A stretch of 63,210 bases of DNA from Rickettsiales bacterium (lineage in GTDB: Bacteria > Pseudomonadota > Alphaproteobacteria > Rickettsiales > UBA1997), in assembly GCA_044360285.1 (NCBI GenBank), contig JBIKKP010000002.1, forward strand, positions 1 through 63,210, given 5' to 3'. A program made the translations under genes and the position numbers. The notes beneath the pieces were generated by a model that worked only from the letters and a program-made list of their open reading frames with translations, made no database searches and was not told the origin of the DNA. Positions 8,794 to 31,742 of this stretch are shown in pieces. The stretch's first letter is position 1, and every line of letters begins with the position of its first letter.

Positions 8794-8888
8794 CCGTCAT
8801 CCTTGGAACGCGTTAGCGTTTCGAGGATCTCGTGCGTTTAGCGCAGAACATAACAAGATCCTCGAGGCCTTCGGCCTCAAGGATGACG
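8794..8888. repeat. Family-1 palindromic (cloverleaf) element, copy A
   Basis: CCGTCATCCTTG...CGAGGATCTCG...GATCCTCG...CAAGGATGACG, with self-complementary side arms AACGC/GCGTT and GAGGCC/GGCCTC. Confidence 0.9.
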
Positions 8889-8910
8889 AGTATGTTGAAA
8901 CGCGACTGTT

Positions 8911-9201
8911 TTACTTAGCCAAATCAAAATAAAGATCCCTCCAACTCGGATTAAAAGATTCAATCAGCCCTACTTTCGCACTTCTTGGAAAATGCTTTAG
9001 CTTCTTCTCCCTCGCTATCGCCTCTAGCACATCTTCAAAAACTTCGTAATAAACCAACTTGTCCAGATTGTACTTTGCAGAAAAACCCTTGAGCAGCTTG
9101 TGTTTATGCTGATAAATTCGACCAATCAAATCCGAAGTAACGCCGATATACAAGACGCCGTCTTTTTTGTTAGTGATGATGTAGACGAAGGAAAATTTCA
9201 T
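8911..9201 (-). CDS. Small GIY-YIG nuclease superfamily protein (UPF0213/URI-domain type)
   Basis: 96 aa. 'FVYIITNKKDGVLYIGVTSDLIGRIYQHK' is a GIY-YIG motif. The gene is bracketed by two nearly identical family-1 repeats. Confidence 0.8.
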   Translation of the reverse strand: MKFSFVYIITNKKDGVLYIGVTSDLIGRIYQHKHKLLKGFSAKYNLDKLVYYEVFEDVLEAIAREKKLKHFPRSAKVGLIESFNPSWRDLYFDLAK

Positions 9202-9228
9202 CGTGGTGAATTGCTTATACCCCCCCAG

Positions 9229-9324
9229 CCGTCATCCTTGGAACGCGTTAGCGTTTCGAGGATCTCGTGCGTCTTAGCGCAGAACATAACAAGATCCTCG
9301 AGGCCTTCGGCCTCAAGGATGACG
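9229..9324. repeat. Family-1 palindromic element, copy B (near-identical to copy A)
   Basis: Same sequence as copy A except for a 1-nt indel in the central loop. The preceding CCCCCAG is also shared with copy A. Confidence 0.9.
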
Positions 9325-9346
9325 TGATTTGGGTTTTGCTTTTCCC

Positions 9347-12238
9347 TCAAAACCGCTGCAACGCACCAACAAAAACCAGGTGCGAGTCAGCGGTTTTTTT
9401 ATGCTCGAAACCATAATTCACACTCAGCGTCGTATCGTCCTTATGCAGCAGCGACATCTCTAACCCAAGCTGCAGGCTGTTTGAATCCAGATTTGAAATT
9501 TTATTCTCAAAAGATTTTTGCTGATTTGTAAATCGTGCTGAAGTCACCGGCGCGTCATTTATCAAGGCTTGTCCGTAAGAAATTTTCACATTCGAAAAAA
9601 ACTTCCGAAATTCCGGCATCGTGGCAATGCGCGCGGCATAGCTCAAATCAAGGCCGGCGCGCGCTTCTAAAAAATTAGCCGAAACTCCTGAAACATTTAA
9701 ATTCAACTCATCAGCACCGTTTTCGCGGTAAGCTGAAATTTTATTTTGCACAAAATTCAGCGAAAATTGCGGCGCTAAATTGAAACCAAAACCAAGATTT
9801 TTTTGGTAAGAAATATCCGTTTTCAGCGCATAAGTTTGACCAGAATATCGCGCCAAAGCATTAGTGTTCAAAGCAGTGATTGCGCGGTTTGAATTGAAGT
9901 TGTTGAAAGCAAAACTTCCCAAAAAATCGACAAAAATTTTATCAAAATTTTTCGCCGCATAAAAATTCAACGCATAGCTGTCGATGATGTTTTCCTTCGA
10001 CTTGTCCAAGTGATTTATCTTTGAGCGCCCATAAGCAAAAGCCGCGCCAGCAGTGGTCTCATCAGCTATTTCTTTATCGATACCAAAAATAATTCCTACT
10101 GAATTTGTTTTAAAACCATCGTCATCTTTAATTGCATTTTGTAAGCTGGAAGCCCCAAAGCCGCGGCCCCAAAAGCCATGCGACAAATCTTGCGCAACAT
10201 CAAGATTATGAATTTTTTGCAAACGATTTTGTGAAATAGATTGGAAATTTCTGACAAAATTTGTTGTCGTAAGCAAACTTGCTTTGCTTGATTGAGGCGC
10301 CAATTGATTGATTGTGGCGGTAATTTCGTCGCTTGGTAAATTTGAAAAATCTAAAAATTTTTGAAATTCTAAAAGCTTGCCAGAGCTTGATCTTCCAAGT
10401 TGCACAAGGTTTTTATAAATGTTTTGTGCATTTTTATTTGGTGTCACTTCATTTGGTTGAAGATGGTTTGCAGCAAGAACTAGACTATTTCCAGAAGCAA
10501 TTGTTGTAAAACGCAGTAGGCCAAAAACATTCGACGATCCATTAACTGAAATGTTTTCTGCAGAAATTTCACTAAGCGACGAAGGCGCACTGGCATTGAC
10601 TAGATCGTAAGTTGTGCCATCGGCAATGTAATTTGAATCACCGACCAGAATTGCTAATTTTGTTCCTGAAGAAATTGTTGCAGCACCAGTAACATCAAGG
10701 CTTCCCACCCTATTTGCCGCAAGCGTTGTCACAAAAATATCGCCAGAATTTAGCGTAAAATTTCCAATAAAATTTTGATTTTTATCACCAACATCAAACC
10801 TTCCTGCGCCAGAACCAGCAAGGTTTCCAGTGATTGTTAAATTATCAGCTTCAGAAAAATTTAGCGCTCCATCAAGAAAAATGTTTGTTGCATAAATATC
10901 GTTCAAAGCAGTCAGTGCGCCGCTTGTAAGAATGTTTAGATTTTGCAATTGATGCAACGAATCGCCAATTGCACCAGAAGTTGAAAAAGAAATTCCATTT
11001 ACGTTGACCGTTCCAACCCCGCTTAAAACCCCATAAATAGGTGCTGCAGACGATGTCGCAAAATTCAAATTCAAAGTCGAATCCGCCGCAATATCAATTC
11101 GTGTTGCATCAATTTTTGCCGCCGAATTAAGCGTGCTGCCGCTTTGAATCGTAAGGTTGGACAGCTCGTCAAAATCTGCGCTTTGATTGAAAATTACTGA
11201 CGGATACAAACTTGATCCAACCACCACCGAACCCGCGCGTTCTGCGCCATTAACTGCTCCAGAGATTGTTCCGCCAAAAATGTTTAGCGTTCCCGCGCCA
11301 ACATAAACGCCGCCAGAAAGGTCGCCCAAGTTGTTAATTTGCGCACTGCTGCCCGCGTTATAGATGGCGTAATTTGTCGAATTTATCGCACCGCTGTTGT
11401 TGATTATAACATTATCGGCATCGTTTCGAATCCCGTAAATACTGGCTCCAGCGCCGCTGGTGATTGTGCCGGAATTTGTGATGAGGCTGTAATTGTCTCT
11501 GTTGTAAATGCCGTGCCCACTGCTTGAAATTGTTCCTGAATTTGTGATTGTTGAATAGCTCGTTGCGCTAGCTGTGGAAGCGCTTGCCGCACTTACATAA
11601 ATTCCGTGCGCAGCACTGCTTGTCGTTGTTGTAATCGTTCCAGAACTTGAAACTTGGTTCACATTTCCGCTTGCATAAATCCCGTAAACCCTTGTGGCAA
11701 TTGATCCAGCATTGTTTGCGCTGTTATTGTCGCCGTTCAAATAAATGCCGTAAGCAGTGGAGTTTATTGTACTGACGCTGCCGAAATTGCTTATCGAGTT
11801 ATTGTCGCCACCCACGTAAATTCCATATGCCGTTGTGCCCTGCGTGCTGATGGCGCCTTGGTTGATGACACTGGAATTATTGGTGATGCTAACGCCGCGC
11901 CCCGAAGCGCCGGTGGTTAAAATTGATGCGCCAAATGCGTTGGTGATGATGTTGTAATTGCCGCTTGTCCTGATGCCGTAAGAACCTGAAATGGTGCCGC
12001 TTGCACCGGTGGCGATGTTGTGTAAATTGGTGATGCGATTTGGCGAGCCACTAGTTCCAACAAGCGTGCTTGAAATTGCAATTCCGCTGGTGGTGATGTC
12101 AGAGCTGGTGAGATAATTTGTATCGCCCGCACCAAGCACAACCGCGCCGGCGCTGGTTGTGGAGACGATTTGGAAAAAAAGAAAAAACGAAAAAATTTCG
12201 ACGATTTTCTTCGTCGAAGCAGCAAGTGGTGTGGGCAT
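9347..12238 (-). CDS. Autotransporter outer-membrane protein (repeat-rich passenger plus C-terminal beta-barrel)
   Basis: 963 aa. The N-terminus is hydrophobic and signal-like. The G/S/N/T-rich passenger has recurring '(A/H)(Y/H)GIY' units. The C-terminal ~280 aa show alternating beta-strand character and end '...VFVGALQRF' with a terminal Phe. Confidence 0.85.
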   Translation of the reverse strand: MPTPLAASTKKIVEIFSFFLFFQIVSTTSAGAVVLGAGDTNYLTSSDITTSGIAISSTLVGTSGSPNRITNLHNIATGASGTISGSYGIRTSGNYNIITNAFGASILTTGASGRGVSITNNSSVINQGAISTQGTTAYGIYVGGDNNSISNFGSVSTINSTAYGIYLNGDNNSANNAGSIATRVYGIYASGNVNQVSSSGTITTTTSSAAHGIYVSAASASTASATSYSTITNSGTISSSGHGIYNRDNYSLITNSGTITSGAGASIYGIRNDADNVIINNSGAINSTNYAIYNAGSSAQINNLGDLSGGVYVGAGTLNIFGGTISGAVNGAERAGSVVVGSSLYPSVIFNQSADFDELSNLTIQSGSTLNSAAKIDATRIDIAADSTLNLNFATSSAAPIYGVLSGVGTVNVNGISFSTSGAIGDSLHQLQNLNILTSGALTALNDIYATNIFLDGALNFSEADNLTITGNLAGSGAGRFDVGDKNQNFIGNFTLNSGDIFVTTLAANRVGSLDVTGAATISSGTKLAILVGDSNYIADGTTYDLVNASAPSSLSEISAENISVNGSSNVFGLLRFTTIASGNSLVLAANHLQPNEVTPNKNAQNIYKNLVQLGRSSSGKLLEFQKFLDFSNLPSDEITATINQLAPQSSKASLLTTTNFVRNFQSISQNRLQKIHNLDVAQDLSHGFWGRGFGASSLQNAIKDDDGFKTNSVGIIFGIDKEIADETTAGAAFAYGRSKINHLDKSKENIIDSYALNFYAAKNFDKIFVDFLGSFAFNNFNSNRAITALNTNALARYSGQTYALKTDISYQKNLGFGFNLAPQFSLNFVQNKISAYRENGADELNLNVSGVSANFLEARAGLDLSYAARIATMPEFRKFFSNVKISYGQALINDAPVTSARFTNQQKSFENKISNLDSNSLQLGLEMSLLHKDDTTLSVNYGFEHKKTADSHLVFVGALQRF

Positions 12239-12287
12239 TTTGGGTTTGGTGTGTGGTGTTTTTTTGGGTTTTTACTTCTCTCAAACT

Positions 12288-12381
12288 CGTCATCCTTGAA
12301 TTGCGCAGCAATTCGAGGATCTCGTTTTGTTTAGCGTTGAACAAAACGAGATCCTCGAAGCCTTTGGCTTCAAGGATGACG
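12288..12381. repeat. Family-1 palindromic element, copy C
   Basis: Outer stem CGTCATCCTTG/CAAGGATGACG. Arms AATTGC/GCAATT and GAAGCC/GGCTTC. 17-bp central stem CGAGGATCTCGTTTTGT/ACAAAACGAGATCCTCG. Confidence 0.9.
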
Positions 12382-12442
12382 GGGAATAGAGTAAGTGGGT
12401 GTGGTGTGTTTTTGGGTTTTTTGTGGTGTGTGGTTTTTTATT

Positions 12443-15103
12443 TTATAGTGCTGCCCTCGCCGCTGCCAAGCGTGCGATTGGAACGCGATAAGGCGAGCAA
12501 GAAACGTAATTCAAACCAATGCGATGACAAAACTCAATTGAAGCTGGATTACCGCCATGCTCGCCGCAAATGCCAAGTTTAATGTCTTTGCGTGTTTCGC
12601 GGCCTTTTGCTGTGGCAATTTTGATGAGCTCGCCAACGCCTTCTTGGTCTAGCTCGGCGAATGGATCTTTTTCCAAAATTCCGGCTTTTTGGTAATGGCC
12701 AAGGAAGTTTGCAGAATCGTCGCGACTCAAGCCAAACGTGGTTTGCGTGAGGTCGTTAGTTCCAAAACTAAAGAATTCTGCTTCATGCGCAATCTTGTCG
12801 GCAACTAGAGCGGCGCGTGGCAGCTCGATCATTGTTCCAACCATGTATTTCAGCTCAACAGCCTGCTCTTTTTGAACTTGTTTTTCGGTTGCAACCACAA
12901 GTTCGCGCAAGATTTGCAGCTCTTTGCGCGTGGCAACTAGCGGGATCATGATCTCAAGCAAAACATCTTGGCCGCTTTCTTTTTTAACGATTGAAGCCGC
13001 TTCAAAAATTGCGCGCGCCTGCATTTCATAGATTTCTGGGTAAGAAATTCCAAGTCGGCAACCACGATGACCAAGCATTGGATTTTGTTCCTGCAGCTCA
13101 TGCGTGCGATGTTTAACGTAGCTCACATCAACACCAAGCGCTTTGGCAACTTCAACGATTTCGCTTTCTTTATGCGGCAAAAATTCGTGAAGTGGTGGAT
13201 CAAGCAAACGAATCGTCACCGGCAAACCAGCCATTATTTTGAAGATCTCGACAAAATCTTTGCGCTGCATTGGAAGCAATTTGGCGAGTGCTTTTTTTCT
13301 GCCTTTAAGATCTTCCGCCAAAATCATTTCGCGAACGGAAATGATACGATCTTCGTTGAAAAACATGTGTTCTGTGCGGCAAAGACCAATTCCTTCCGCG
13401 CCAAAATCGCGCGCCACTTGGCAATCAAGCGGAGTTTCGGCGTTAGTGCGAACGCGCAGCACGCGCACTTCGTCGGCCCATTTCATTACGGTTTGGAAAT
13501 CGTCGGAAAGATTTGGCTTCAAAGTTGGAACTTGACCAAGAATTACATCGCCCGTTGAGCCGTTGATGGTGATGACCTCACCTTCTTTTACCTTAACGCC
13601 ACCAGCAGTAAAAAACTGGCCAGCATTATCCACGTGAAGCCCCGCCGCACCAGACACGCAAGGCGTTCCCATGCCACGCGCAACTACGGCCGCGTGCGAA
13701 GTCATGCCGCCGCGAGCGGTTAGAATTCCTTGTGAAACGTGCATTCCCTTGATGTCTTCTGGGCTGGTTTCAACGCGAACTAGAATTACTTTATCGCCAT
13801 TTTCCGCGCGTCTTTCTGCTTCTGCAGAAGAAAATACAACAATGCCGGAAGCTGCGCCAGGCGATGCTGGAAGGCCTTTTGCAATTACCTGAACTTTCGC
13901 TTTTGGATCAAGAGTTGGGTGCAAAAGTTGATCTAAACTTGCTGGATCAATACGCTTCAAAGCCTCTTTTTTGCTGATGAGATTTTCCGAAACCATATCG
14001 ACAGCAATCTTCACCGCAGCATGCGCTGTTCGTTTACCGTTGCGGGTTTGCAGCATCCACAGCTTTTTATTTTGCACGGTAAATTCGATGTCTTGCATGT
14101 CGCGATAATGCATTTCGAGCTTGCGATAAGTTTTCACCAACTCAGCAAAAACATCAGGCATGGTTTCTTCCATTGAAGGAAGCTTAGAGCCAAGCTGCTC
14201 TTTACCCAAAATTGTAATTGATTGCGGAGTGCGAATTCCCGCAACAACGTCTTCGCCTTGCGCGTTGATGAGATATTCGCCGTAAAGTTCTCTCAAACCA
14301 GTTGATGGATTACGCGTAAAGGCAACGCCGGTTGCCGAAGTTTCGCCCATGTTGCCAAAGACCATTGACTGCACGTTTACCGCAGTTCCCCAGCTTTGTG
14401 GAATGTCGTGAAGTTGACGATAAGTGATGGCGCGATCATTCATCCACGAAGCAAAAACCGCTTCAACGGCGCCCCAAAGTTGCTCGTTCACATCTTGCGG
14501 AAATTCGCGGCCCAACTCTTGTTTTACTTCCGATTTGAAAAGCGCGACGATTTCTTCAAGCTGCTCTGCAGTAAGGTCGGTATCAGCTTTTGCGCCGAAT
14601 TCTTGCTTTTTTTCATCAAGAATTACTTCGAAATTGTGATGATCAAAACCAAGCACAACGTTGGAATACATCTGGATGAAGCGGCGGTATGAGTCGAAAG
14701 CGAAACGTTTATTGCCAGAATTTTTAGCAAGGCCTTCAACAGTTTGATCATTCAAACCCAAATTCAAAACCGTGTCCATCATGCCAGGCATTGAGGCTCT
14801 AGCGCCCGAACGAACTGAGAAAAGTAGTGGATTGCTGGCATCACCAAATTTTGCGCCAATTTTTTCTTCAATTTGTGCCACCGCTGCAGCCACTTCGCCC
14901 CTTAATTCAGCCGGAAATTTTTTGCCGTTTTTGTAATAAAAATCGCAAAATTCTGTGGTGATGGTGAATCCCGGCGGAACCGGCAGGCCCATCTTCGACA
15001 TCTCGGCCAAATTAGCACCTTTGCCGCCAAGCAAATTCTTCATCGAGGCATCGCCTTCTGATTTTCCATCGCCAAAAGAATATACAAATTTTTGCGCCGT
15101 CAT
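12443..15103 (-). CDS. ppdK: Pyruvate, phosphate dikinase
   Basis: 886 aa. N-terminus 'LLGGKGANLAEM', phosphohistidine motif 'GGMTSHAAVVARG', and a C-terminal PEP-utilising TIM barrel with 'GICGE'. Confidence 0.95.
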   Translation of the reverse strand: MTAQKFVYSFGDGKSEGDASMKNLLGGKGANLAEMSKMGLPVPPGFTITTEFCDFYYKNGKKFPAELRGEVAAAVAQIEEKIGAKFGDASNPLLFSVRSGARASMPGMMDTVLNLGLNDQTVEGLAKNSGNKRFAFDSYRRFIQMYSNVVLGFDHHNFEVILDEKKQEFGAKADTDLTAEQLEEIVALFKSEVKQELGREFPQDVNEQLWGAVEAVFASWMNDRAITYRQLHDIPQSWGTAVNVQSMVFGNMGETSATGVAFTRNPSTGLRELYGEYLINAQGEDVVAGIRTPQSITILGKEQLGSKLPSMEETMPDVFAELVKTYRKLEMHYRDMQDIEFTVQNKKLWMLQTRNGKRTAHAAVKIAVDMVSENLISKKEALKRIDPASLDQLLHPTLDPKAKVQVIAKGLPASPGAASGIVVFSSAEAERRAENGDKVILVRVETSPEDIKGMHVSQGILTARGGMTSHAAVVARGMGTPCVSGAAGLHVDNAGQFFTAGGVKVKEGEVITINGSTGDVILGQVPTLKPNLSDDFQTVMKWADEVRVLRVRTNAETPLDCQVARDFGAEGIGLCRTEHMFFNEDRIISVREMILAEDLKGRKKALAKLLPMQRKDFVEIFKIMAGLPVTIRLLDPPLHEFLPHKESEIVEVAKALGVDVSYVKHRTHELQEQNPMLGHRGCRLGISYPEIYEMQARAIFEAASIVKKESGQDVLLEIMIPLVATRKELQILRELVVATEKQVQKEQAVELKYMVGTMIELPRAALVADKIAHEAEFFSFGTNDLTQTTFGLSRDDSANFLGHYQKAGILEKDPFAELDQEGVGELIKIATAKGRETRKDIKLGICGEHGGNPASIEFCHRIGLNYVSCSPYRVPIARLAAARAAL

Positions 15104-19771: not shown

Positions 19772-22700
19772 ATGACCAAAAAATCACACTATCCTGAGGT
19801 AAATCAAAATCTCGATTTCGCCAAAATGGAGGAAGAAATTTTACGCTTCTGGCAGCAAGAAAAAGTTTTTGAAAAGTCGGTTGCAATCAGGAATACCAGC
19901 ACTCTGGACGAAGATGAAGTTTCACCAATTATCGATCATTGCTCACTAAAAGATCACACCAGCTGCCGCCACCAAGCACCAAGCACTGAGCACCAAGCAC
20001 AAGATTTCGTCTTCTATGACGGCCCGCCTTTTGCCAATGGCCTACCGCATTACGGCCACTTACTGACTGGCTTCATCAAGGATTTGGTTGCGCGTTATCA
20101 AACGATGAAAGGCAAAAAAGTTGAGCGCCGTTTTGGTTGGGATACGCATGGTTTGCCGGTGGAAATGGAAACTGAGAAAGAATTAACCGCAAAAGAAGGT
20201 CGACAAATTTCCGGCCAAATTGCGATTCAGGAATATGGAATTGAGAAGTTCAACGCGGCATGCGAGGCGTCGGTGATGAAATATGAAAGCGAGTGGGAGC
20301 ACTACGTCACGCGCCAAGGCCGGTTTGTTGATTTTAAAGACAGCTACAAAACTAAGGATCTAAAGTTTATGGAGTCAGTGCTGTGGGCTTTCCAGCAGCT
20401 TTATGATAAGGGATTACTTTATGAGGATTTCCGCGTGGTTCCTTATTCCTGGGCTTGTCAGACGCCGCTTTCGAATTTTGAGACGCGGATGGATAATTCT
20501 TACAGGCAGAAGGCTAGTAAGGCGGTGACGGTGAAGTTTGAGTTGACGGAAGAAAGTGTAAAAAAATTGCATGAACGTGTGGGCGCGGTTGCAAACCACG
20601 CCCAGCAACTACGAGTTTCATTAGTTGCTTGGACGACCACGCCGTGGACTTTGCCGTCGAATTTGGCTCTGGCGGTGGGGAAGGAAATTGAATATGCGGT
20701 AATAAAAACCAAACCCGTCATCCTTGGCGGCAAAGCCGCCGAGGATCTCTTAAGTGAGACTGCTAAACTCACGAGATCCTCGGACGCTGGCGCGTCCAAG
20801 GATGACGGAGGGTTTTTGATTCTCGCCGCCGGATTAGTTGAAAAATTCGCGAAAGATTTAGGAGAGTTTGAAATTGTAGGAAGCTGCAAAGGTGCGGATT
20901 TAGTAGGCTTAAGCTACAAATCCCTCTTCCCTTACCTCGTCGAAAAAGCCAAAAATTCTCCAAAAGCATTTACCGTTTTGCACGGCGATTTCGTTTCAAC
21001 TGACGAAGGAACCGGCATCGTCCACATGGCGCCAGGCTTTGGTGAAGATGACCAACTTTTGTGTAAGGCTAACGGAATCCCAACTCTTTGCCCGGTTGAT
21101 GAAGGCGGGAAATTTGTTGATGCGATGTTTGATATCACCCTCACCCCAACCCTCTCCCCTCAAGGGAGAGGGCTTTCATCCGAGCTCGATTCAGCTCCCT
21201 CTCCCTTGAGGGGAGAGGGTTGGGGTGAGGGTGAAAAAGATTTAACCAATCTAGCCAAAAACCTCAGAAAAAACCAAACCGACGCTGAAGAAAAATTATG
21301 GAACATCCTTCGAAGCCGACAAATCGAGAATCTAAAATTTAGAAGGCAGCATCAAATCGGAAATTACATCGCTGATTTTATATGCCTTGAGAAGAGGCTA
21401 ATTATCGAGCTCGACGGCGGTCAGCATGGTGAGGAAAAAAACATTAAATCAGATCAGGAAAGGACTCAGTTCTTGGAAAAAGAAGGTTTCAGAGTTTTAA
21501 GATTTTGGAATAATGAGGTGCTGCAAAATGCCGAGGGAGTTTATGAAAGGGTTTTAGAGAGTGTTAATCACCCTCACCCCAACCCTCTCCCCTTAAGGGA
21601 GAGGGAGCAAATCGAGCGAGAGGTTGAACCGAGTTCTAATCTAACTCTTTCACTTAAAGGCCGCCAAGTTTTCGACACCAACGACGACATCATTCGCTAC
21701 TTAAAAGCTACAGGCGCCTGGCTCAAAACCGAACAATACCTCCACAACTACCCACACTGCTGGCGCACCGACACGCCGTTGATTTATCGCGCGGTGTCGT
21801 CTTGGTATGTCAAAGTGACAGATTTCAAAGACCGCATGGTCGAGTTAAACCAAGGAATCAACTGGATCCCAAACCACATCAAAGACGGACAATTTGGCAA
21901 ATGGTTGGAAGGTGCACGCGATTGGTCGATCACGCGCAACCGCTTCTGGGGCTGTCCGGTGCCGGTTTGGAAATCGAAATCAGGGAAGATCAAAGTCTTT
22001 GGATCAATCGCCGAACTTGAAAAAGTTTCCGGCAAAAAAATTGAAAATCTGCATCGCCCGTTCATTGACGAAATCACTTTTGTTGAAAATGGCGAAGAAT
22101 TTAAACGCGTCACCGACGTGCTAGATTGCTGGTTCGAATCGGGTTCGATGCCATACGCGCAAGTACATTATCCATTCGAAAACAAAGAATGGTTTGAGCA
22201 AAATTTCCCAGCTGATTTTATCACTGAATATGTCGCACAAACTCGCGGCTGGTTCTACACGTTGATGGTTTTATCAACCGCCCTGTTTGACCGCGCACCG
22301 TTTAAAAACGTGATTTGTCACGGAACAATTTTGGACGAAAATTCGCAGAAACTTTCTAAGCGCTTACGCAACTATGCCGATCCGCTGGAGATTTTTTCGA
22401 CGTTTGGCAGTGATGCCATGCGCTTCTACATGATTTCGCAACCTGTAATGCGTGGCCAAGAATTACGCATTGATAAAGAAGGAAAAGCAATTCGCGACAC
22501 GCTGCGTTTGTCGATCAAACCGTTGATGAATGCGTTTAATTTCTTCTGCCTTTACGCCAACGCTGACGGAATTATCGCCAAACGAATTGACGCCAAACGT
22601 GAATTTAAAAACACGCTTGATCTCTATATTTTATCCAAGCTGAAAGCTGCTGTGGAAAATATCGACAAAGCAATGAGCAGCTACGACACCGTAACGTCTT

Positions 22701-22921
22701 GCGAAGAATTTACCAAATTTTTCGAAGCGCTAAATAACTGGTATATCCGCCGCAATCGCGCACGTTTTTGGAAAGAGGAAATTGATGCAGATAAGCAAGA
22801 TGCTTACGACGTGCTCTACAGCTGCTTGCTTTCAATGTGTGAGGCGGCGGCACCGCTTTTACCTTTTACAACAGAGTTTGTGTGGAAATCACTAAAATTT
22901 GAACAACGCTTGCAATCTTAA
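19772..22921 (+). CDS. ileS: Isoleucyl-tRNA synthetase, type 2, carrying three in-frame insertions and lacking the usual C-terminal extension
   Basis: 'FYDGPPFANGLPHYGHLLTG' (HIGH region), 'WCISR-like WSITRNRFWG', and 'KLSKR' (KMSKS) at ~22349-22363. It is one uninterrupted 1049-codon ORF. Confidence 0.9.
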   Translation: MTKKSHYPEVNQNLDFAKMEEEILRFWQQEKVFEKSVAIRNTSTLDEDEVSPIIDHCSLKDHTSCRHQAPSTEHQAQDFVFYDGPPFANGLPHYGHLLTGFIKDLVARYQTMKGKKVERRFGWDTHGLPVEMETEKELTAKEGRQISGQIAIQEYGIEKFNAACEASVMKYESEWEHYVTRQGRFVDFKDSYKTKDLKFMESVLWAFQQLYDKGLLYEDFRVVPYSWACQTPLSNFETRMDNSYRQKASKAVTVKFELTEESVKKLHERVGAVANHAQQLRVSLVAWTTTPWTLPSNLALAVGKEIEYAVIKTKPVILGGKAAEDLLSETAKLTRSSDAGASKDDGGFLILAAGLVEKFAKDLGEFEIVGSCKGADLVGLSYKSLFPYLVEKAKNSPKAFTVLHGDFVSTDEGTGIVHMAPGFGEDDQLLCKANGIPTLCPVDEGGKFVDAMFDITLTPTLSPQGRGLSSELDSAPSPLRGEGWGEGEKDLTNLAKNLRKNQTDAEEKLWNILRSRQIENLKFRRQHQIGNYIADFICLEKRLIIELDGGQHGEEKNIKSDQERTQFLEKEGFRVLRFWNNEVLQNAEGVYERVLESVNHPHPNPLPLREREQIEREVEPSSNLTLSLKGRQVFDTNDDIIRYLKATGAWLKTEQYLHNYPHCWRTDTPLIYRAVSSWYVKVTDFKDRMVELNQGINWIPNHIKDGQFGKWLEGARDWSITRNRFWGCPVPVWKSKSGKIKVFGSIAELEKVSGKKIENLHRPFIDEITFVENGEEFKRVTDVLDCWFESGSMPYAQVHYPFENKEWFEQNFPADFITEYVAQTRGWFYTLMVLSTALFDRAPFKNVICHGTILDENSQKLSKRLRNYADPLEIFSTFGSDAMRFYMISQPVMRGQELRIDKEGKAIRDTLRLSIKPLMNAFNFFCLYANADGIIAKRIDAKREFKNTLDLYILSKLKAAVENIDKAMSSYDTVTSCEEFTKFFEALNNWYIRRNRARFWKEEIDADKQDAYDVLYSCLLSMCEAAAPLLPFTTEFVWKSLKFEQRLQS
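20715..20807. repeat. Family-1 palindromic element, copy D, in-frame inside ileS (93 nt = 31 codons)
   Basis: CCGTCATCCTTG GCGGCaaaGCCGCC GAGGATCTC...GAGATCCTCG GACGCtggcGCGTCC AAGGATGACG. It is translated as 'PVILGGKAAEDLLSETAKLTRSSDAGASKDD'. Confidence 0.9.
21135..21172 (+). repeat. 38-nt G/C-rich repeat 'a' (TCACCCTCACCCCAACCCTCTCCCCTCAAGGGAGAGGG), solo copy
   Basis: Exact reverse complement of 21197-21234. It differs by 1 nt from 21578-21615. Confidence 0.95.
21197..21234 (-). repeat. 38-nt repeat, inverted copy (left terminal inverted repeat of the DUF559 cassette)
   Basis: CCCTCTCCCTTGAGGGGAGAGGGTTGGGGTGAGGGTGA is the exact reverse complement of 21135-21172. Confidence 0.95.
21578..21615 (+). 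repeat. 38-nt repeat, right terminal inverted repeat of the DUF559 cassette
   Basis: TCACCCTCACCCCAACCCTCTCCCCTTAAGGGAGAGGG, with a single mismatch to copy 'a'. Confidence 0.95.
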
Positions 22922-24345: not shown

Positions 24346-24441
24346 CCGTCATCCTTGAAGCCGCAGGCTTCGAGGATCTTGTGAGTTTAACGACGAACAA
24401 AATGAGATCCTTGAATTTACTTCGTAAATTCAAGGATGACG
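24346..24441. repeat. Family-1 palindromic element, copy E (more diverged)
   Basis: CCGTCATCCTTG AAGCCgcaGGCTT CGAGGATCTTG...GAGATCCTTG AATTTACttcGTAAATT CAAGGATGACG. Confidence 0.85.
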
Positions 24442-27253: not shown

Positions 27254-29002
27254 TTAAAACCCCGCCCCGATTTCGAAATAAACTAACGCATTTTCTTTTT
27301 GGTTTGTCGTCACCAACTGCGAACTATTCACACCCCACGCACATGTAAATGAAGCATTAAAATTATTACTCTCAAACGCCGTCTTCACCCCCGCACCCGA
27401 CATTCTGCCAGCCTCGCCGGTTTTTATTTTGATGTGGCCGTAATCATAAAACGGCTCAAGTTTTATTCTGCTTTGATAAGAAAAAGTGTTAAAATTTCCT
27501 AAATCAAAAGTGAGTTTATTGCGTAAAAAATATCCCGAATCGCCGCTGATATAATTTTCGCGAAATCCTCGCACCGAGTAATAGCCACCTACTGCGAACT
27601 GTTCCGAGCCAAAAAGTGTATCTTTAGAAATTTGCGAATCGAACTCACTGCCGATGGAAAATTTAAAGTCAGAAATTGAAACTTTTTTCGTCACCGATGC
27701 ATAAAGTTTAAACAATTCGAACTGCGCCTTAGGAATTGAAGCATCGATATTTTTATGATCTTTTTTTGCGTCCAGAACCTTTAAACCTCTAGAGTATGAA
27801 GGGCTAAGATAAATTGAATAAGTCGGAAAAAAAGATGAAAAAGCCAAAGCAAAATTCCCCACACTTAATCTTCGCTGCGAAGTTTCGATTTTTTCTCCGT
27901 TTAAATAACTTGCCGATTCTTTGGTGGTAAGTGTTGCGGTGCTTGTTATTCGAAGCTTCGAGTCGTTTAACAAAATTCGCTGTGCACCAAACTTATTTTG
28001 TTTAGAAAAGCCAGTAAGCGTTGTGGTTGAAGCAACACCAACATTTTGCCCCTTAAATTCACTGTGCGAATAATCATAAGAAAATGTGTTTTGTTTGAAG
28101 GGAATTGAAATTCCGCCAGAAAAAGATTTTATGTCTTTGACCTGACTATCATCATGCGCGTTCGTTGAGTAAGTAAGGTTAAGCGCATCATCAAGCGACA
28201 AAAAATTGTCAAACGAAGTTGAAAAAACTGCGCGCTGCACGCCGGTGAATTTATTGCCCAAATTGTCTTTTCCAACAGTTGCGCGCAGTGGAAATTTTTT
28301 GTTATTTTCGATGACGATTTTACTCATCCCATCAACACTGCCCGGCTCAATTTTTATTACTGCTGAATTTGACGGCAGGCGATTAATTTGGTAAATTCCG
28401 TCGTTGATTTCGTTAAGGTCTAAAACCTTGCCCTGCTTGCTTCCAAAGGCCATAAACTTTTGCATTTTTTCGCGCCAAGTTTCTTTGCCAAAAATTATTT
28501 TTTCGATTTTTCCCTCAATAATTTTTAACTCAAAAATGCCGCTGCTGATATTTTGTTTGGGCACGATGATTTGTGTCGTGACATAGCCCTGCGCCTGATA
28601 GAATTCATTGAGCGTGGCGATAATTTCTTGCAGATTTTTTGCGTCAAAACAGCGACCTAAAAATTTTTGCAGCAGATTTTTTTGCTTACGCGCGGAAATT
28701 TTGGAAGCACCGGAAAGCTTTATTTCATTGATTTGCCAACATTCTTCACTTTTTTTGATTACTTTTAGCTGCTGATCTTTTTCTTCCTCTTCTTCTTTTT
28801 TCTTGCGCTCAAAATCTTTAGAAATTGCCTCCATTTCTTTGCTGCGCTTAGTTTCTTCCAAGATATTTTGCTGATTTCTGATGATCCAATCTTGCTGATT
28901 TATTGCATCTGAACTTTGCGTTTGTGCGAAAACTGCTGAGGAAATGTTTAAAAAAGCTATGGCAATAAAAATTGCGCCAAGCCTGTGTTTTTGTGGCTTC
29001 AT
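27254..29002 (-). CDS. Two-partner-secretion outer-membrane transporter (ShlB/FhaC/HecB family, TpsB)
   Basis: I moved the start to ATG 29002 ('MKPQKHRLGAIFIAIAFLNISSAVFAQ' signal peptide). A POTRA-like segment 'FELKIIEGKIEKIIFG' is present. The C-terminal beta-barrel ends '..YFEIGAGF'. Confidence 0.85.
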   Translation of the reverse strand: MKPQKHRLGAIFIAIAFLNISSAVFAQTQSSDAINQQDWIIRNQQNILEETKRSKEMEAISKDFERKKKEEEEEKDQQLKVIKKSEECWQINEIKLSGASKISARKQKNLLQKFLGRCFDAKNLQEIIATLNEFYQAQGYVTTQIIVPKQNISSGIFELKIIEGKIEKIIFGKETWREKMQKFMAFGSKQGKVLDLNEINDGIYQINRLPSNSAVIKIEPGSVDGMSKIVIENNKKFPLRATVGKDNLGNKFTGVQRAVFSTSFDNFLSLDDALNLTYSTNAHDDSQVKDIKSFSGGISIPFKQNTFSYDYSHSEFKGQNVGVASTTTLTGFSKQNKFGAQRILLNDSKLRITSTATLTTKESASYLNGEKIETSQRRLSVGNFALAFSSFFPTYSIYLSPSYSRGLKVLDAKKDHKNIDASIPKAQFELFKLYASVTKKVSISDFKFSIGSEFDSQISKDTLFGSEQFAVGGYYSVRGFRENYISGDSGYFLRNKLTFDLGNFNTFSYQSRIKLEPFYDYGHIKIKTGEAGRMSGAGVKTAFESNNFNASFTCAWGVNSSQLVTTNQKENALVYFEIGAGF

Positions 29003-29033
29003 GGGGTTTATGGTTTTTGGTGTTTTTAGTTTT

Positions 29034-31190
29034 TTAACTAATACGCGACACTTCAACAATTTTTTTAGACATACGAAGTGCCGAGATAATTTCCTCCAAA
29101 TGTTCGAGATTTTTTACTTCAAGATCGACAAGAAACTCAAAATAATCTGCAGAGCGATTGATGATGCGCAAATTGCTGATATTGACCTTTTTCTTAGCGA
29201 TGATGCTGCTGACTTCAGCCAAGCTTCCGCTTGAATTTTGAACCACGGCCGAAACCTTACTGGCATAAGTTTCATCACCAATTTCTTCATCGCTTTTCCA
29301 GCAAACATCAACAACGCGCTGTGGCAATAAAACCAAATTGCGCAAGTTTCGGCAATTCTGATTATGAATGGTCACGCCGGTTCCGGTGTTAATGATTCCA
29401 ACTATCGGATCACCTGGAATTGGATTGCAACAGCCTGCATAATGCATGGCCATTCCATTCACCAAACCTTCAATTGGCAGCGAATATCTTTTTGATTTTT
29501 CACTTGGTTTCGATGTTTTTACTTGCTTTGTCTCTTCTTTGAAATCTGGGTAAATAATCTTCAAAACATCTTGGCGCGAAATCCTTCCCTCAGCGACTTT
29601 AACGCATAATTCTGGAATCGATTTTTTATGCAAAAGCACCAGAGCTTTTTCTAAAATTTTATCGCTGATTTCTAGACCTTTTGATGCAAAAAATTTATTT
29701 AAAATTGCACGGCCCAAAAGGTGATATTCGTTGAATTTTTCGCTGCGAATAAAGGCCTTAATCGCCGATTTTGCTTTTGTGGTGATAGCAAATTGCAGCC
29801 AGTTAGGAGAAGGCTTGCCATTGTTTGATGTGACAATTTCAACCTGATCGCCATTTTCCAGCTTCTGACGCAGCGGCGCAATCGCGCCATTTACCTTCGC
29901 TGAGACACAGCTGTTGCCAACTTGCGAATGCACAGCATAAGCAAAATCAATGATTGTTGAGCCAAAAGGTAGATTAAAAATATCACCATTTGGCGTGAAA
30001 CAAAAGACCTCGTTTTTATGCAAAACGAGTTTGTGATTTTTTATTACCTCGCTGGAATTTTCTGAATTTTCAAAAAGCGTGATTAGCTCACGAATCCAGC
30101 GATATTGCTCGCTCTCTTCTTTTCCAGCACGATCAGTTTTTTTAGATTTTTCCTTGTAGCGCCAATGCGCTGCAACACCCAGTTCATTGACTTCGTGCAT
30201 TTTTTTATCACGAATCTGAATTTCGATTTTTTTGTTAAACGGCCCTAAAATTGCCAAGTGTAAAGACTGATAACCATTTTCCTTGGGCGTGCTGATATAG
30301 TCGCGGAAGGTTCCAGGAATCATGTTGAAGTTAGAATTAATCGTACCCAAAGCGCGATAACACTCACCAATATCATTAACGACAATACGAAAGGCCATGA
30401 TGTCGTGCAGATTGTGGAAGCCGATATTTTGCTCCTTCATCTTGTTGAAAATTGAATAGAGCTGCTTCTCACGGCCCATCACCTGGCACTTCAGGCCTTC
30501 TGCATCAAAAATGCGCGTCAGGTCGGCGATGATTTTTTCGATGAGATTTTTGTTTTTTTCGCGTAGTTCGCCAAGCTTCTCGCTGATGTAATTGCGCGAC
30601 TCAGGGTCGATTACTTCAAAAGCTAATTCCTGCAATTCATCTTTAATTTTTGTGAGACCAATCCTTGCAGCAAGCGGCGCGAAGATGTCTAAGCTTTCTT
30701 TCGCTTTGCGTAATTTCTTCTCGCGCGACGGCAAATAAGTCAGCGTGCGCATATTGTGCAGCCTGTCGGCAAGCTTCACCAGCAACACACGAATATCTTG
30801 CGACATGGCCATAGTCAGCTTGCGGAAATTTTCAATCACGCGCAGCTCAAAAGACGCAGCTTCAATTTTACCAAGCTTGGTGACGCCATCAACCAGCAGC
30901 GCAACTTCTTCACCAAATTCTTTTTCTATTTCTTCGATTGTCACTTCCGTATCTTCAACAACATCATGAAGCAGGCCGGCAATAATAGATTCGCAGTCAA
31001 GCTTAAGATCAGCTAGAATTTCTGCGACAGCAACGGGATGAGAAAAATAGGGATCGCCCGAATGGCGTTTTTGATTGCCATGGGCATTTTTGGCGAAGAT
31101 GTAGGCCTTTTGAAGCAAGGCCTCGTCTGGGTTTGGATGGTAGGTGCGAACCTTAGCAACTAAGTTGGCGGCACTTAGTATGTCTGGCAT
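29034..31190 (-). CDS. spoT: Bifunctional (p)ppGpp synthetase/hydrolase (RelA/SpoT homologue)
   Basis: 718 aa. HD hydrolase 'HSGDPYFSHPVAVA..LHDVVEDT', synthetase 'RDYISTPKENGYQSLH', and TGS and ACT-like C-terminal domains. Confidence 0.92.
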   Translation of the reverse strand: MPDILSAANLVAKVRTYHPNPDEALLQKAYIFAKNAHGNQKRHSGDPYFSHPVAVAEILADLKLDCESIIAGLLHDVVEDTEVTIEEIEKEFGEEVALLVDGVTKLGKIEAASFELRVIENFRKLTMAMSQDIRVLLVKLADRLHNMRTLTYLPSREKKLRKAKESLDIFAPLAARIGLTKIKDELQELAFEVIDPESRNYISEKLGELREKNKNLIEKIIADLTRIFDAEGLKCQVMGREKQLYSIFNKMKEQNIGFHNLHDIMAFRIVVNDIGECYRALGTINSNFNMIPGTFRDYISTPKENGYQSLHLAILGPFNKKIEIQIRDKKMHEVNELGVAAHWRYKEKSKKTDRAGKEESEQYRWIRELITLFENSENSSEVIKNHKLVLHKNEVFCFTPNGDIFNLPFGSTIIDFAYAVHSQVGNSCVSAKVNGAIAPLRQKLENGDQVEIVTSNNGKPSPNWLQFAITTKAKSAIKAFIRSEKFNEYHLLGRAILNKFFASKGLEISDKILEKALVLLHKKSIPELCVKVAEGRISRQDVLKIIYPDFKEETKQVKTSKPSEKSKRYSLPIEGLVNGMAMHYAGCCNPIPGDPIVGIINTGTGVTIHNQNCRNLRNLVLLPQRVVDVCWKSDEEIGDETYASKVSAVVQNSSGSLAEVSSIIAKKKVNISNLRIINRSADYFEFLVDLEVKNLEHLEEIISALRMSKKIVEVSRIS

Positions 31191-31532
31191 CTAGTCGTCT
31201 ACTTGGACGTTTTCATCAACAAAAGTATCGTCTTTAAGCACGATATTTGGTTCAGATTCCTCTGACATTAATTCTGTCACTTCTTCGCTTGCCGGGGCAA
31301 CTTCAACAGCGCCACGGTTTTTGATTGAACGAACGATATTTTTACGAATCGCATCAACATCAACTAAACCATCAGCGATTTCGCGCAGAGCAATTACCGA
31401 TGGTTTTTCTTTGCGATCCAGGCTGGTAGAGGCTCCAGAAAGAATGCTTTTTGCACGATTTCCAGCAATTAAGCACAATTCAAAATGATTTGGAACAACT
31501 GTCACGCAGTCTTCTACGGTGATTCTTGCCAT
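31191..31532 (-). CDS. rpoZ: DNA-directed RNA polymerase subunit omega
   Basis: 'MARITVEDCV..NHFELCLIAGNRAK'. Its stop codon abuts the spoT start, the conserved rpoZ-spoT pair. Confidence 0.9.
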   Translation of the reverse strand: MARITVEDCVTVVPNHFELCLIAGNRAKSILSGASTSLDRKEKPSVIALREIADGLVDVDAIRKNIVRSIKNRGAVEVAPASEEVTELMSEESEPNIVLKDDTFVDENVQVDD

Positions 31533-31647
31533 AGTTTTAAGATTTTTTTTGAAGTTCGAATGAGGGCGGCGCGTTGTAAATTCGTGGTTCTAGCAAGGCA
31601 ATAGAAAATTTAAACCCACTTCACAACCACTTATCATCCTCTCACAA

Positions 31648-31742
31648 CCGTCATCCTTGAATTGCGTAGCAATCCGAGGATCTCGTGCGTTTTAGCGCTG
31701 AACAAAACGAGATCCTCGAAGCCTTTGGCTTCAAGGATGACG
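31648..31742. repeat. Family-1 palindromic element, copy F (close to copy C)
   Basis: CCGTCATCCTTG AATTGCgtaGCAAT CCGAGGATCTCG...CGAGATCCTCG AAGCCtttGGCTT CAAGGATGACG. Confidence 0.9.

What the first reader, a model, noticed from the sequence alone, without database searches (positions are those of the whole stretch)
8794..31742. Family-1 repeat: a ~95-nt cloverleaf-forming element whose arms co-vary to preserve pairing
Six copies are present at 8794-8888, 9229-9324, 12288-12381, 20715-20807, 24346-24441 and 31648-31742. All share the outer stem CGTCATCCTTG/CAAGGATGACG and the central stem CGAGGATC(TCG)/(CGA)GATCCTCG. The two side arms differ in sequence between copies but are always self-complementary. 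The left arm reads AACGC/GCGTT (A,B), AATTGC/GCAATT (C), GGCGGC/GCCGCC (D) and GAAGCC/GGCTTC (E). The right arm reads GAGGCC/GGCCTC (A,B), GAAGCC/GGCTTC (C,F), GGACGC/GCGTCC (D) and TTGAATTTAC/GTAAATTCAA (E). This covariation argues for selection on a four-way-junction structure in DNA or RNA. Judged by the asymmetric central loop (TTTAGCG..GAACA), at least five copies point the same way on the + strand regardless of neighbouring gene orientation. The behaviour resembles Rickettsia palindromic elements, but the sequence is not one I recognise.
Basis: seen in the sequence. Interest (0 to 1): 0.62.

Follow-up and report, generated by a model that had tools for sequence, protein, structure and literature searches.

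The report
Paired CGTC hairpin repeats with Ssn nuclease
The "cloverleaf" repeat is real, but it is an inverted pair of already-known CGTC-tagged hairpin repeats (relatives of Rickettsia RPE-4/6 and Neisseria dRS3/NTS) that go with a small single-strand DNA nuclease gene next to two of the copies, so it is a new family of a described system.

Summary
All six copies sit at the stated coordinates. The draft genome (1.46 Mb, an uncultured freshwater alphaproteobacterium) holds about 74 copies.

Each ~94-nt element is an inverted dimer of two ~35-nt units: CGTC | ATCCTTG + variable arm | 3-nt loop | arm' + CGAGGAT | CTC. The CGTC tags face outward and the spacer is 27–28 nt.

- **Arm covariation:** it is very strong, but it belongs to a 12–13-bp hairpin inside each unit.
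- **Cloverleaf stems:** the outer and central stems show no covariation. They are what two inverted copies of one conserved motif give automatically.
- **Unit type:** the unit has the grammar of CGTC-tagged REPs (Di Nocera 2013) and of Ssn-related motifs (Chenal 2025).
- **Nuclease gene:** the single 96-aa GIY-YIG gene at 8911-9201, bracketed by copies A and B, belongs to the SsnA ssDNA-nuclease family.
- **Copy number:** across the genus it tracks the presence of the cognate nuclease.
- **Location:** copies avoid promoter regions and favour gene 3' ends. Three copies lie in frame in IleRS, LeuRS and a MiaB-like enzyme.
- **Other features:** there are no target-site duplications, no homodimers and almost no recent copies.

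This is a new, longer-stemmed family of a known repeat/nuclease system.

The parts
8795..8888. Copy A. An inverted dimer, with its + unit at 8795-8829 and its - unit at 8857-8888. It ends 22 nt before the stop end (8911) of the GIY-YIG ORF; the tblastn match puts the gap at 26 nt.
8911..9201 (-). A 96-aa single-domain GIY-YIG nuclease gene, an SsnA-family homologue and the only copy in the genome. It is bracketed by copies A and B.
   Evidence: Pfam GIY-YIG E 4e-15. Single copy in the genome. 44-54% identical to GIY-YIG genes lying 26-31 nt from exact canonical NTS repeats. The same bracketing is seen in L053, L012 and L096.
9230..9324 (.). Copy B. An inverted dimer, with its + unit at 9230-9264 and its - unit at 9293-9324. 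It starts 29 nt from the start codon of the GIY-YIG gene. It is 98.9% identical to A and shares 9 nt of 5' flank with it (CCCCCCAGC).
12288..12381 (.). Copy C. An inverted dimer (units 12288-12321 + and 12350-12381 -) between the autotransporter and PPDK genes, which run in tandem.
20716..20807 (.). Copy D. An inverted dimer (units 20716-20747 + and 20775-20807 -) translated in frame as residues ~315-345 of IleRS (ORF 19772-22921 +).
   Evidence: The PDB IleRS alignment skips query residues 313-345. Congeners with an empty site are shown. One contig spans the copy in two lake metagenomes.
24347..24441 (.). Copy E. An inverted dimer (+ unit 24347-24378, - unit about 24404-24441, which has a longer 7-8-bp arm and a CAAGGATC tail box). 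It lies in the divergent asd/lpxB gap. It is the only window copy whose two-hairpin fold beats the cloverleaf in energy.
31649..31742 (.). Copy F. An inverted dimer (units 31649-31682 + and 31711-31742 -) downstream of the ORF at 31757-32266 and upstream of rpoZ, which run in tandem.

Best explanation
The 'family-1 repeat' is an inverted dimer, with tags facing outward, of a CGTC-tagged repetitive extragenic palindrome. This is the repeat class that Chenal et al. 2025 call Ssn-related motifs (SRM). Each ~35-nt unit reads CGTC (unpaired tag), then ATCCTTG plus a 5-6-nt variable arm, a 3-nt loop, the arm complement plus CGAGGAT, and then C-T-C. As single-stranded DNA each unit forms a 12-13-bp hairpin. 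The tag, the proximal 7 bp and the C just after the stem are conserved, and the distal 5-6 bp only has to pair. The 96-aa GIY-YIG protein encoded at 8911-9201, between copies A and B, is the cognate SsnA-type nuclease. By analogy with the characterised Neisseria and Wolbachia enzymes, it should bind the hairpin only when the DNA is single-stranded and nick a few nucleotides 5' of the CGTC tag. That region here is a G-poor ...AAAC(C/T) flank. Because a dimer puts one unit on each strand, either strand is cleavable when exposed during DNA uptake, replication or repair. The two units always carry different arms, which prevents a ~94-nt perfect palindrome. The cloverleaf is a thermodynamically available by-product of the two conserved boxes being inverted copies of each other, and it is not a selected structure. 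The family is old and now nearly static. It sits mostly downstream of genes and survives inside three genes as in-frame 24-33-codon inserts. Shown here: the anatomy, the covariation pattern, the gene-repeat linkage, the co-occurrence across the genus and the homology to NTS-flanked nucleases. Inferred: the ssDNA cleavage and any role in limiting recombination or transformation.
For: - Unit and dimer anatomy: 164 half-units against 4 in a shuffled genome; 75 tags-out dimers and 1 other arrangement; the spacer mode is 27-28 nt.
- Hairpin covariation lies within units, not between them.
- The grammar matches the published NTS (CGTC | ATTCCCGCG | MAV | GCGGGAAT | CYRG). It has the CGTC tag, a stem starting A-T then T-A (91/92 and 89/92), and an invariant C after the stem.
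- The single GIY-YIG gene is flanked at 26 and 29 nt by copies A and B. The same bracketing is seen in two other genomes with this element (L053, L012) and in L096.
- Homologues in Thalassotalea, Desulfurobacterium and other lineages are flanked by their own CGTC/TGTC hairpins.
- The protein is 44-54% identical (E 1e-23 to 2e-30) to GIY-YIG genes lying 26-31 nt from exact canonical NTS repeats, one of them bracketed on both sides.
- Within the genus, exact half-unit counts are 92, 68 and 33 in the three genomes whose nuclease is 100%, 72% and 71-78% identical. Counts are 0-3 in the genomes whose best Ssn homologue is intact but only ~50-56% identical; the sampled ones are flanked by TGTCACCCCG-type hairpins instead.
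- The distribution is REP-like: 24 convergent, 36 tandem and 3 divergent gaps, against a background of 155/820/149.
- There is no TSD in 69 of 74 copies.
- 0 of 73 dimers are homodimers; my estimate from the arm frequencies is about 5.7 expected.
- Published biochemistry: SsnA homologues of Neisseria and Wolbachia cut only ssDNA, just upstream of their motif (PMC11893778).
Against: - No biochemistry exists for this protein or this unit.
- The published degenerate SRM search pattern does not match these units (2 hits against about 4.5 in shuffles). It also misses an obviously NTS-like Thalassotalea repeat.
- The stems are 12-13 bp with 3-nt loops, outside the 8-9 bp and 4-5 nt of the four published CGTC families.
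- For N. meningitidis SsnA, changing the stem sequence while keeping the pairing abolished activity. A freely varying distal stem therefore implies a different recognition mode, or that many copies are not substrates.
- Four congeners hold 6-16 exact half-units and a fifth holds 2 without any Ssn match; another holds 13 with only a weak (33% identical) GIY-YIG match, and one holds 18 with a 53%-identical homologue carrying a stop codon. These could be relics, or assembly losses at the repeat-flanked gene.
- As free ssDNA the cloverleaf is 5-10 kcal/mol more stable than two separate hairpins in five of the six window copies. That fold would bury the tags.
- CDD family cd10448 could not be tested.
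Confidence: 0.75

Rival explanations
1. The four-way junction (cloverleaf) is itself the selected, functional structure in DNA or RNA. It might act as a cruciform-like recognition site, or as a way to hide the CGTC tags from the nuclease.
For: All six copies fold to the cloverleaf, with z-scores from -7 to -11. Under DNA parameters it is the minimum-energy fold in five of six copies, by 5-10 kcal/mol. The spacer length is tightly constrained at 27-28 nt. Strict heterodimery (0 of 73 homodimers) is what makes a cloverleaf form rather than one long hairpin.
Against: Outer and central stems show no covariation beyond shuffled partners. 0 of 30 box substitutions, and only 2 of 32 substitutions at the cloverleaf-only positions, are matched in the partner unit. 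Compensation is seen for the competing intra-unit pairing. The complementarity follows automatically from inverting a conserved motif. Copy E prefers the two-hairpin fold. Single units and dimers with 131-194-nt spacers also exist.
Confidence: 0.12
2. The elements act mainly at the RNA level, like classical REPs. They would be transcribed as 3'-UTR hairpins that stabilise upstream mRNA or help termination, and the nuclease link would be incidental to their maintenance.
For: Copies are enriched between convergent genes and depleted from divergent gaps. The folds are very stable. [quoted passage not shown]
Against: Both strands fold equally well and orientation is random, which is unlike strand-specific RNA elements. 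Conservation is concentrated in the unpaired CGTC tag and the post-stem C, the positions that matter for SsnA cleavage and binding respectively, rather than in terminator features. No RNA data exist for this organism; only lake DNA metagenomes hold the sequence. Rfam gives only sub-threshold hairpin noise. This role is not exclusive of the main explanation.
Confidence: 0.2
3. The element is a conventional MITE, a non-autonomous transposon with 11-bp terminal inverted repeats mobilised by a DDE or other transposase encoded elsewhere.
For: It has perfect 11-bp terminal inverted repeats, a ~94-nt size, dozens of dispersed copies and occasional in-gene insertions.
Against: There is no target-site duplication in 69 of 74 copies. 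No longer element with the same ends was found; the only gene bracketed by copies is the 96-aa GIY-YIG gene. The 'TIRs' are the heads of two independent hairpin units that also occur singly. Only 2 of 2701 pairs are at least 95% identical, so there has been no recent burst. The one marginal Y1-transposase-like hit in the genome (23.2 bits, contig C18) lies on a contig with no copy of the element.
Confidence: 0.04

Closest known systems
Ssn-related motifs (SRM/NTS) with SsnA GIY-YIG ssDNA nucleases (Chenal et al. 2025, Nat Commun, PMC11893778)
   Same: It has the CGTC(AT) tag, then a hairpin, then a conserved C. A ~95-aa single-domain GIY-YIG gene is bracketed by the repeats about 26-31 nt from its ends. 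There are tens to hundreds of mostly intergenic copies. Nuclease/motif pairs are lineage-specific. The host is a Rickettsiales-like alphaproteobacterium.
   Different: The stem is 12-13 bp (against about 8-9 bp), and only its proximal 7 bp are conserved in sequence. Loops are 3 nt. Units occur almost only as tags-out heterodimers with a 27-28-nt spacer. The published degenerate SRM pattern does not detect them. No activity data exist.
CGTC-tagged REP superfamily, families CGTC-1 to -4, including Rickettsia conorii RPE-4/RPE-6 and Neisseria dRS3 (Di Nocera et al. 2013, PMC3733652)
   Same: It has an unpaired CGTC tag and a stem beginning A-T/T-A. Units are mostly arranged as inverted dimers, often heterodimers. 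Copies lie downstream of genes. Intragenic dimers encode 20-30 residues, including in tRNA synthetases. The class is predominantly alphaproteobacterial.
   Different: Stem and loop lengths fall outside the four described families. The tail is CTC/CTT rather than the CCA consensus. Heterodimery appears absolute here (0 of 73 homodimers).
REPIN/RAYT systems (GTAG-tagged REP doublets with a single-copy Y1 transposase)
   Same: A single-copy nuclease gene is flanked by its own repeats. Inverted doublets of hairpin units are scattered through the genome. The population is old and largely vertically inherited.
   Different: The tag is different (CGTC, not GTAG). The enzyme fold is unrelated (GIY-YIG, not HUH/Y1). 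No transposition chemistry is known for Ssn.

Membership tests
CGTC-tagged REPs (Di Nocera 2013) | Unpaired CGTC (or TGTC/CCTC) tetranucleotide at one end of a short palindrome | tested here: met
   C1, G2 and C4 are at least 90% conserved and T3 is invariant across 92 distinct half-units. The tag lies outside the covarying hairpin.
CGTC-tagged REPs (Di Nocera 2013) | Stem starts with complementary A and T residues at positions 1 and 2 | tested here: met
   Pair 5-31 is A-U in 91 of 92 units and pair 6-30 is U-A in 89 of 92.
CGTC-tagged REPs (Di Nocera 2013) | Stem of 8-9 bp and loop of 4-5 nt (families CGTC-1 to -4) | tested here: not met
   The stem is 12-13 bp (10-12 bp in relatives) and the loop is mostly 3 nt. 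It would need a fifth family.
CGTC-tagged REPs (Di Nocera 2013) | High copy number, mainly intergenic and downstream of genes, frequently as inverted dimers | tested here: met
   74 dimers were found. 71 of them lie outside long ORFs. Convergent gaps are enriched and divergent gaps depleted. 75 of 76 paired arrangements are inverted and tags-out.
Ssn/SRM system (Chenal 2025) | Single-domain ~94-aa GIY-YIG gene flanked on both sides by the motif | tested here: met
   The protein is 96 aa with a GIY-YIG domain only. Copies lie 26 and 29 nt from its ends. The arrangement is repeated in L053, L012 and L096.
Ssn/SRM system (Chenal 2025) | Protein homologous to SsnA of N. meningitidis (the paper's criterion: tblastn E < 1e-10) | tested here: inconclusive
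   The Nm sequence was not at hand. As a proxy, the protein is 44-54% identical (E 1e-23 to 2e-30) to three GIY-YIG genes that lie 26-31 nt from exact matches to the published NTS. Y7, Y18 and E65 sit one residue off the Nm catalytic Y6, Y17 and E64 (read from the sequence). This gives strong but indirect support.
Ssn/SRM system (Chenal 2025) | [quoted passage not shown] | not testable with these tools
   No CDD library is available. NCBIfam gives only a sub-threshold group I intron endonuclease hit.
Ssn/SRM system (Chenal 2025) | Match to the published degenerate SRM pattern HGTCWYN(0-2)YYVSBRHN(0-5)WNVSBRGN(0-2)RNCYNB | tested here: not met
   There are 2 hits in the genome against 0-8 in ten shuffles, and none falls on the elements. 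The pattern also misses the NTS-like Thalassotalea repeat, so this test is narrow.
Ssn/SRM system (Chenal 2025) | Conserved C immediately 3' of the palindrome (the key binding base in Nm) | tested here: met
   Column 32 is an invariant C in all 92 half-units.
Ssn/SRM system (Chenal 2025) | Motif abundance goes with presence of the cognate nuclease | tested here: met
   Across the 25 genomes of the genus, counts of 92, 68 and 33 go with orthologues of 100%, 72% and 71-78% identity. Counts of 0-3 go with intact homologues of only ~50-56% identity; the sampled ones carry another hairpin type. A few genomes with 6-18 units have no hit, only a weak hit, or a homologue carrying a stop codon.
Ssn/SRM system (Chenal 2025) | Cleavage of ssDNA only, a few nt 5' of the motif | not testable with these tools
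   This needs purified protein and oligonucleotides.
Rickettsia palindromic elements (RPE) | Palindromic repeats inserted in frame in protein-coding genes | tested here: met
   The inserts are in IleRS (residues ~313-345), LeuRS (residues ~715-747) and a MiaB-like radical-SAM enzyme (residues ~107-131).
Rickettsia palindromic elements (RPE) | Sequence similarity to a named RPE family | not tested
   No RPE consensus was at hand. The link is through Di Nocera's assignment of RPE-4 and RPE-6 to CGTC REPs.
MITE | Target-site duplication and an autonomous partner with the same terminal repeats | tested here: not met
   69 of 74 copies have no direct flank repeat of 2 nt or more. No longer element with these ends was found apart from the GIY-YIG unit.
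REPIN/RAYT | GTAG tag and a flanked Y1 (HUH) transposase | tested here: not met
   The tag is CGTC. The only Y1_Tnp-like hit is marginal (23.2 bits, contig C18), and that contig has no copy of the element.

The most novel reading that the evidence does not exclude
The obligate heterodimer could be a conformational switch. In a complete dimer the single strand prefers the cloverleaf, which buries both CGTC tags and the cut sites in duplex, so the host's own intact copies would be poor substrates. Isolated or partly exposed units (for example on incoming fragments or at replication forks) would form the simple hairpin and be cut. Together with a nuclease that reads only the tag, the proximal 7 bp and the post-stem C, and ignores the distal stem sequence, this would be a new structure-gated mode of Ssn targeting.
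Probability: 0.12. Interest if true: 0.6.

Novelty: new member of a known kind. Interest (0 to 1): 0.3.

Why it matters
- **Annotation:** it files a conspicuous repeat of an uncultured freshwater Rickettsiales-like lineage under a system that was given a biochemical meaning only in 2025. It also shows that the published SRM search pattern misses at least one abundant family, so surveys based on that pattern undercount Ssn-motif pairs.
- **Ssn specificity:** the family is a natural experiment. A conserved tag and proximal stem combine with a freely covarying distal stem, heterodimery is strict, and two nuclease/motif pairs occur within one genus. This could guide the choice of enzymes and substrates for the ssDNA tools that the Ssn paper proposes.
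- **Method:** a cloverleaf drawn on an inverted dimer of a conserved hairpin is not evidence for a four-way junction.

Tried and rejected
- **Rfam:** nothing at gathering thresholds in the whole window. At the E-value threshold there are only sub-threshold hairpin matches to eukaryotic miRNA precursors.
- **A new discovery?** I first read the GIY-YIG bracket as a possibly new RAYT analogue. I dropped that once the literature search found Chenal 2025 and Di Nocera 2013. Searches for GIY-YIG with 'repetitive extragenic palindromic', REPIN, RAYT and MITE found nothing relevant.
- **Solved structures:** only a weak UPF0213 match, 1zg2, E 0.014. The paper's supplements are not held.
- **Flanks:** complementarity between the two flanks of a dimer is only slightly above partner-shuffled expectation (mean identity over 10 nt 3.66 against 3.24, p about 0.007). 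It is mostly explained by each head's own G-poor AAAC(C/T) flank, so I did not count it as an extra helix.
- **Metagenome contigs:** laying Logan contigs from four lake metagenomes over 18 kb showed contig breaks at the intergenic copies but no variant lacking an element. There is therefore no evidence for current mobility. Contigs cannot show absence of rare variants.
- **RNA:** no RNA runs were found.
- **Malformed calls:** searches returned errors and gave no data.

Full report
**Observation.**
- The six copies align over about 94 nt. The ends CGTCATCCTTG / CAAGGATGACG are invariant, the central stem CGAGGATCTC / GAGATCCTCG is nearly invariant, and the two side arms and the central loop vary.
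- The terminal 11-mer occurs 12 times in the window against 0.72 expected.
- Every copy folds as a single strand into the described cloverleaf, with z-scores from -7.4 to -11.2.
- The window is contig C57 of a 1.457-Mb, 72-contig, 41.6% GC genome.
- Record titles of related MAGs, and the runs that hold the sequence, point to an uncultured freshwater alphaproteobacterium of the Rickettsiales/Holosporales kind.
- A genome-wide scan finds 74 copies. The element is therefore neither a chance pattern nor confined to six sites.

**Anatomy.**
- Parsing the copies shows a smaller unit. It consists of an 11-nt head (CGTCATCCTTG), an arm hairpin, and a tail box (CGAGGATCTC).
- There are 164 such half-units against 4 in a shuffled genome. 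They form 75 inverted pairs with the CGTC ends outward and a spacer that is 27-28 nt in most pairs.
- A few pairs have 131-194 nt between the units, and a few units are alone.
- Within a unit, ATCCTTG can pair with CGAGGAT, with one T-G pair. This continues the arm into a 12-13-bp hairpin that leaves CGTC unpaired at the 5' end and CTC unpaired at the 3' end.

**Which structure is selected?** I counted pairs on gap-free alignments.
- For the whole unit hairpin (92 distinct 34-nt units from this genome and related MAGs), 97.0% of cells pair against 83.2% in shuffles. 141 cells carry changes on both sides against 35, and the five arm positions each show three to six pair types.
- For the cloverleaf, I used the four conserved boxes of 51 distinct dimers joined head-L, tail-L, tail-R, head-R. 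This is a counting device, not a natural sequence. The outer and central stems pair at 92.0% against 92.2% in shuffles, and 470 of 500 shuffles have at least the observed covariation.
- For the competing intra-unit pairing on the same alignment, there are 10 double-change cells against 1.6 expected, with 0 of 500 shuffles as high. Most are the recurrent C-G to T-A change, ATTCTTG...CGAGAAT.
- A direct count agrees. None of 30 box substitutions is mirrored in the partner unit, while 21 remain paired inside their own unit. At the positions that pair only in the cloverleaf, 30 of 32 substitutions are unmatched.
- Under DNA energy parameters the cloverleaf is nevertheless the minimum-energy fold in five of six window copies, by 5-10 kcal/mol. 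Copy E prefers two hairpins.
- My reading: the cloverleaf is available, but its stems exist because the two units are inverted copies of one conserved motif.

**The gene.**
- Copies A and B bracket a 96-aa ORF (8911-9201, minus strand) whose only domain is GIY-YIG. It is the only such gene in the genome, and the repeats lie 26 and 29 nt from it.
- The same bracketing appears in two other genomes that carry this element or a variant of it (L053, L012) and in a JGI contig (L096).
- The protein family is very large, with about 60% identity across phyla. Many of its contigs are only 520-600 bp, as expected if assemblies break at flanking repeats.
- Homologues in Thalassotalea, Desulfurobacterium and other lineages are each flanked by their own hairpins ending in CGTCAT or TGTCA.

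**Literature.**
- Di Nocera et al. 2013 (PMC3733652) defined CGTC-tagged REPs. These are mostly alphaproteobacterial. Their stems start with A-T pairs, they are mostly arranged as inverted dimers and often as heterodimers, and some lie in genes, including tRNA synthetase genes.
- The same paper assigns R. conorii RPE-4 and RPE-6 and Neisseria dRS3 to this class. It noted that the class had no known enzyme.
- Chenal et al. 2025 (PMC11893778) showed that the 94-aa GIY-YIG protein SsnA binds the Neisseria motif CGTCATTCCCGCGMAVGCGGGAATCYRG only as ssDNA and cuts a few nucleotides upstream.
- They also showed that ssnA genes are typically flanked by such motifs, that homologues from other Neisseria and from Wolbachia do the same on their own motifs, and that in N. 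meningitidis the system lowers transformation by motif-bearing DNA.
- They pointed out the analogy with RAYT/REP.

**Membership.**
- The unit here has the same grammar as the NTS: the tag, an A-T/T-A start to the stem, and an invariant C after the stem.
- It differs in stem length (12-13 bp against 8-9 bp), in loop length (3 nt), and in having a distal stem that is free in sequence.
- The published degenerate SRM pattern does not find it. That pattern also misses an NTS-like repeat beside the Thalassotalea homologue.
- For the protein, I fetched metagenome contigs carrying exact canonical NTS copies. Three of them have GIY-YIG genes 44-54% identical to the window's protein, 26-31 nt from the NTS, and one is bracketed on both sides.
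- CDD cd10448 could not be tested, and no Ssn structure is in the PDB.

**Co-occurrence in the genus (own genome plus 24 congeners).**
- Exact half-unit counts are 92 (own genome), 68 (G024) and 33 (G012). These are the genomes whose nuclease is 100%, 72% and 71-78% identical.
- Genomes whose best Ssn homologue is intact but only ~50-56% identical have 0-3 units. The sampled homologues are mostly bracketed by a different, canonical short hairpin, TGTCACCCCG-loop-CGGGGTC. The genus therefore holds at least two nuclease/motif pairs.
- Four genomes with 6-16 units (G004, G021, G016 and one other) and one with 2 show no Ssn match. G008 (13 units) shows only a weak 33%-identical hit. G010 (18 units) has a 53%-identical homologue with a stop codon. 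These could be relic units, or gene loss in assembly.

**Distribution and age.**
- Copies favour convergent gaps (24 of 63 classified, against 14% of all gaps) and avoid divergent gaps (3 of 63, against 13%).
- There are no target-site duplications.
- The 12 nt upstream of every head are G-poor and end in AAAC(C/T). In the Neisseria system the cut falls in the equivalent region.
- Only 2 of 2701 copy pairs are at least 95% identical, and the median identity is 77%.
- Contigs from four lake metagenomes break at the intergenic copies, but none lacks a copy.
- None of 73 dimers has the same arm in both units. My estimate from the arm frequencies is about 5.7 expected. This avoidance of a ~94-nt perfect palindrome explains why the two arms of a copy always differ. 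Di Nocera et al. noted the same preference and suggested protection from hairpin-cleaving enzymes.

**Copies in genes.**
- Copy D lies in ileS. The alignment to solved IleRS structures skips query residues 313-345, which is the element, and residues 455-628, which is a DUF559 cassette.
- Two other genomes of the genus (G004, G022) carry a dimer of a shorter subtype (TGTCATCCTGA...GAAGGATCT) at the same loop. G012 has a short unrelated insert there. The other nine genomes in the alignment show an empty site, mostly reading ...LKKGD|EYLILA....
- I cannot tell one old insertion that diverged from repeated hits at a tolerant loop.
- Two further in-frame copies lie in LeuRS and in a MiaB-like radical-SAM enzyme.

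**Mechanism.**
- Shown: the anatomy, the covariation, the linkage to the gene, the co-occurrence and the homology.
- Inferred from the published enzymes: the protein binds a unit when the DNA is single-stranded and nicks 5' of the tag, and a dimer offers one substrate on each strand.
- The genome encodes ComEC and DprA homologues, so uptake of single-stranded DNA is plausible. These genes are common and prove nothing.
- A role as RNA hairpins at the 3' ends of genes is not excluded.

**Verdict.**
- The element is a new, longer-stemmed, strictly heterodimeric family of CGTC REPs/SRMs with its cognate Ssn-type nuclease.

Noticed in passing
window 21134-21655 (IleRS residues ~455-628): A second in-frame insert in ileS carries a complete DUF559/Vsr-like endonuclease domain (Pfam E 7e-40; PDB 3hrl 'endonuclease-like protein' E 1.4e-23). 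IleRS homology resumes cleanly on both sides.
   Followed up: partly
G000 contig C15:2763-2857 and contig C3:1834-1905: Two more in-frame copies of the element. One is in LeuRS just before the anticodon-binding domain (about residue 715). The other is a short 72-nt dimer in a MiaB-like radical-SAM methylthiotransferase (about residue 107). All three in-gene hosts act on tRNA.
   Followed up: partly
loci L103, L106, L108, L110 (congeners G023, G014, G007, G011): A second Ssn lineage in the same genus, 50-56% identical, is bracketed by canonical short TGTCACCCCG-loop-CGGGGTC hairpins. G000 has 3 such units but no matching nuclease.
   Followed up: partly
locus L105 (G010:C128): The Ssn homologue of G010 carries an internal TAA stop. 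That genome still holds 18 exact half-units of the window's type. This may be a decaying nuclease with relic repeats.
   Followed up: no
locus L096 (JGI contig Ga0502761_0000025) compared with window 8795-15103: In a relative, the Ssn gene lies directly downstream of the PPDK gene in the same orientation, with 3-4 element copies between them. In the window an autotransporter gene sits between PPDK and the Ssn gene. The nuclease locus therefore looks syntenic and vertically inherited rather than mobile.
   Followed up: no
G000 contigs C1:12689-12945 and C26:9796-9992: Two dimers have spacers of 194 and 131 nt instead of 27-28 nt, which suggests something was inserted between the two units.
   Followed up: no
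G000 contig C18:4131-4331: A marginal Y1-transposase (PF01797) match, at 23.2 bits right on the cut-off, lies in a 200-aa open frame. No copy of the element is on that contig.
   Followed up: no
loci L012, L016, L079 (assembly labelled 'Patescibacteria group bacterium Gw_Eff_bin_533'): This assembly carries a variant of the element (central box GAGGATCCATCC) and a bracketed Ssn gene. That is unexpected for the taxonomic label and may indicate mis-binning or transfer.
   Followed up: no
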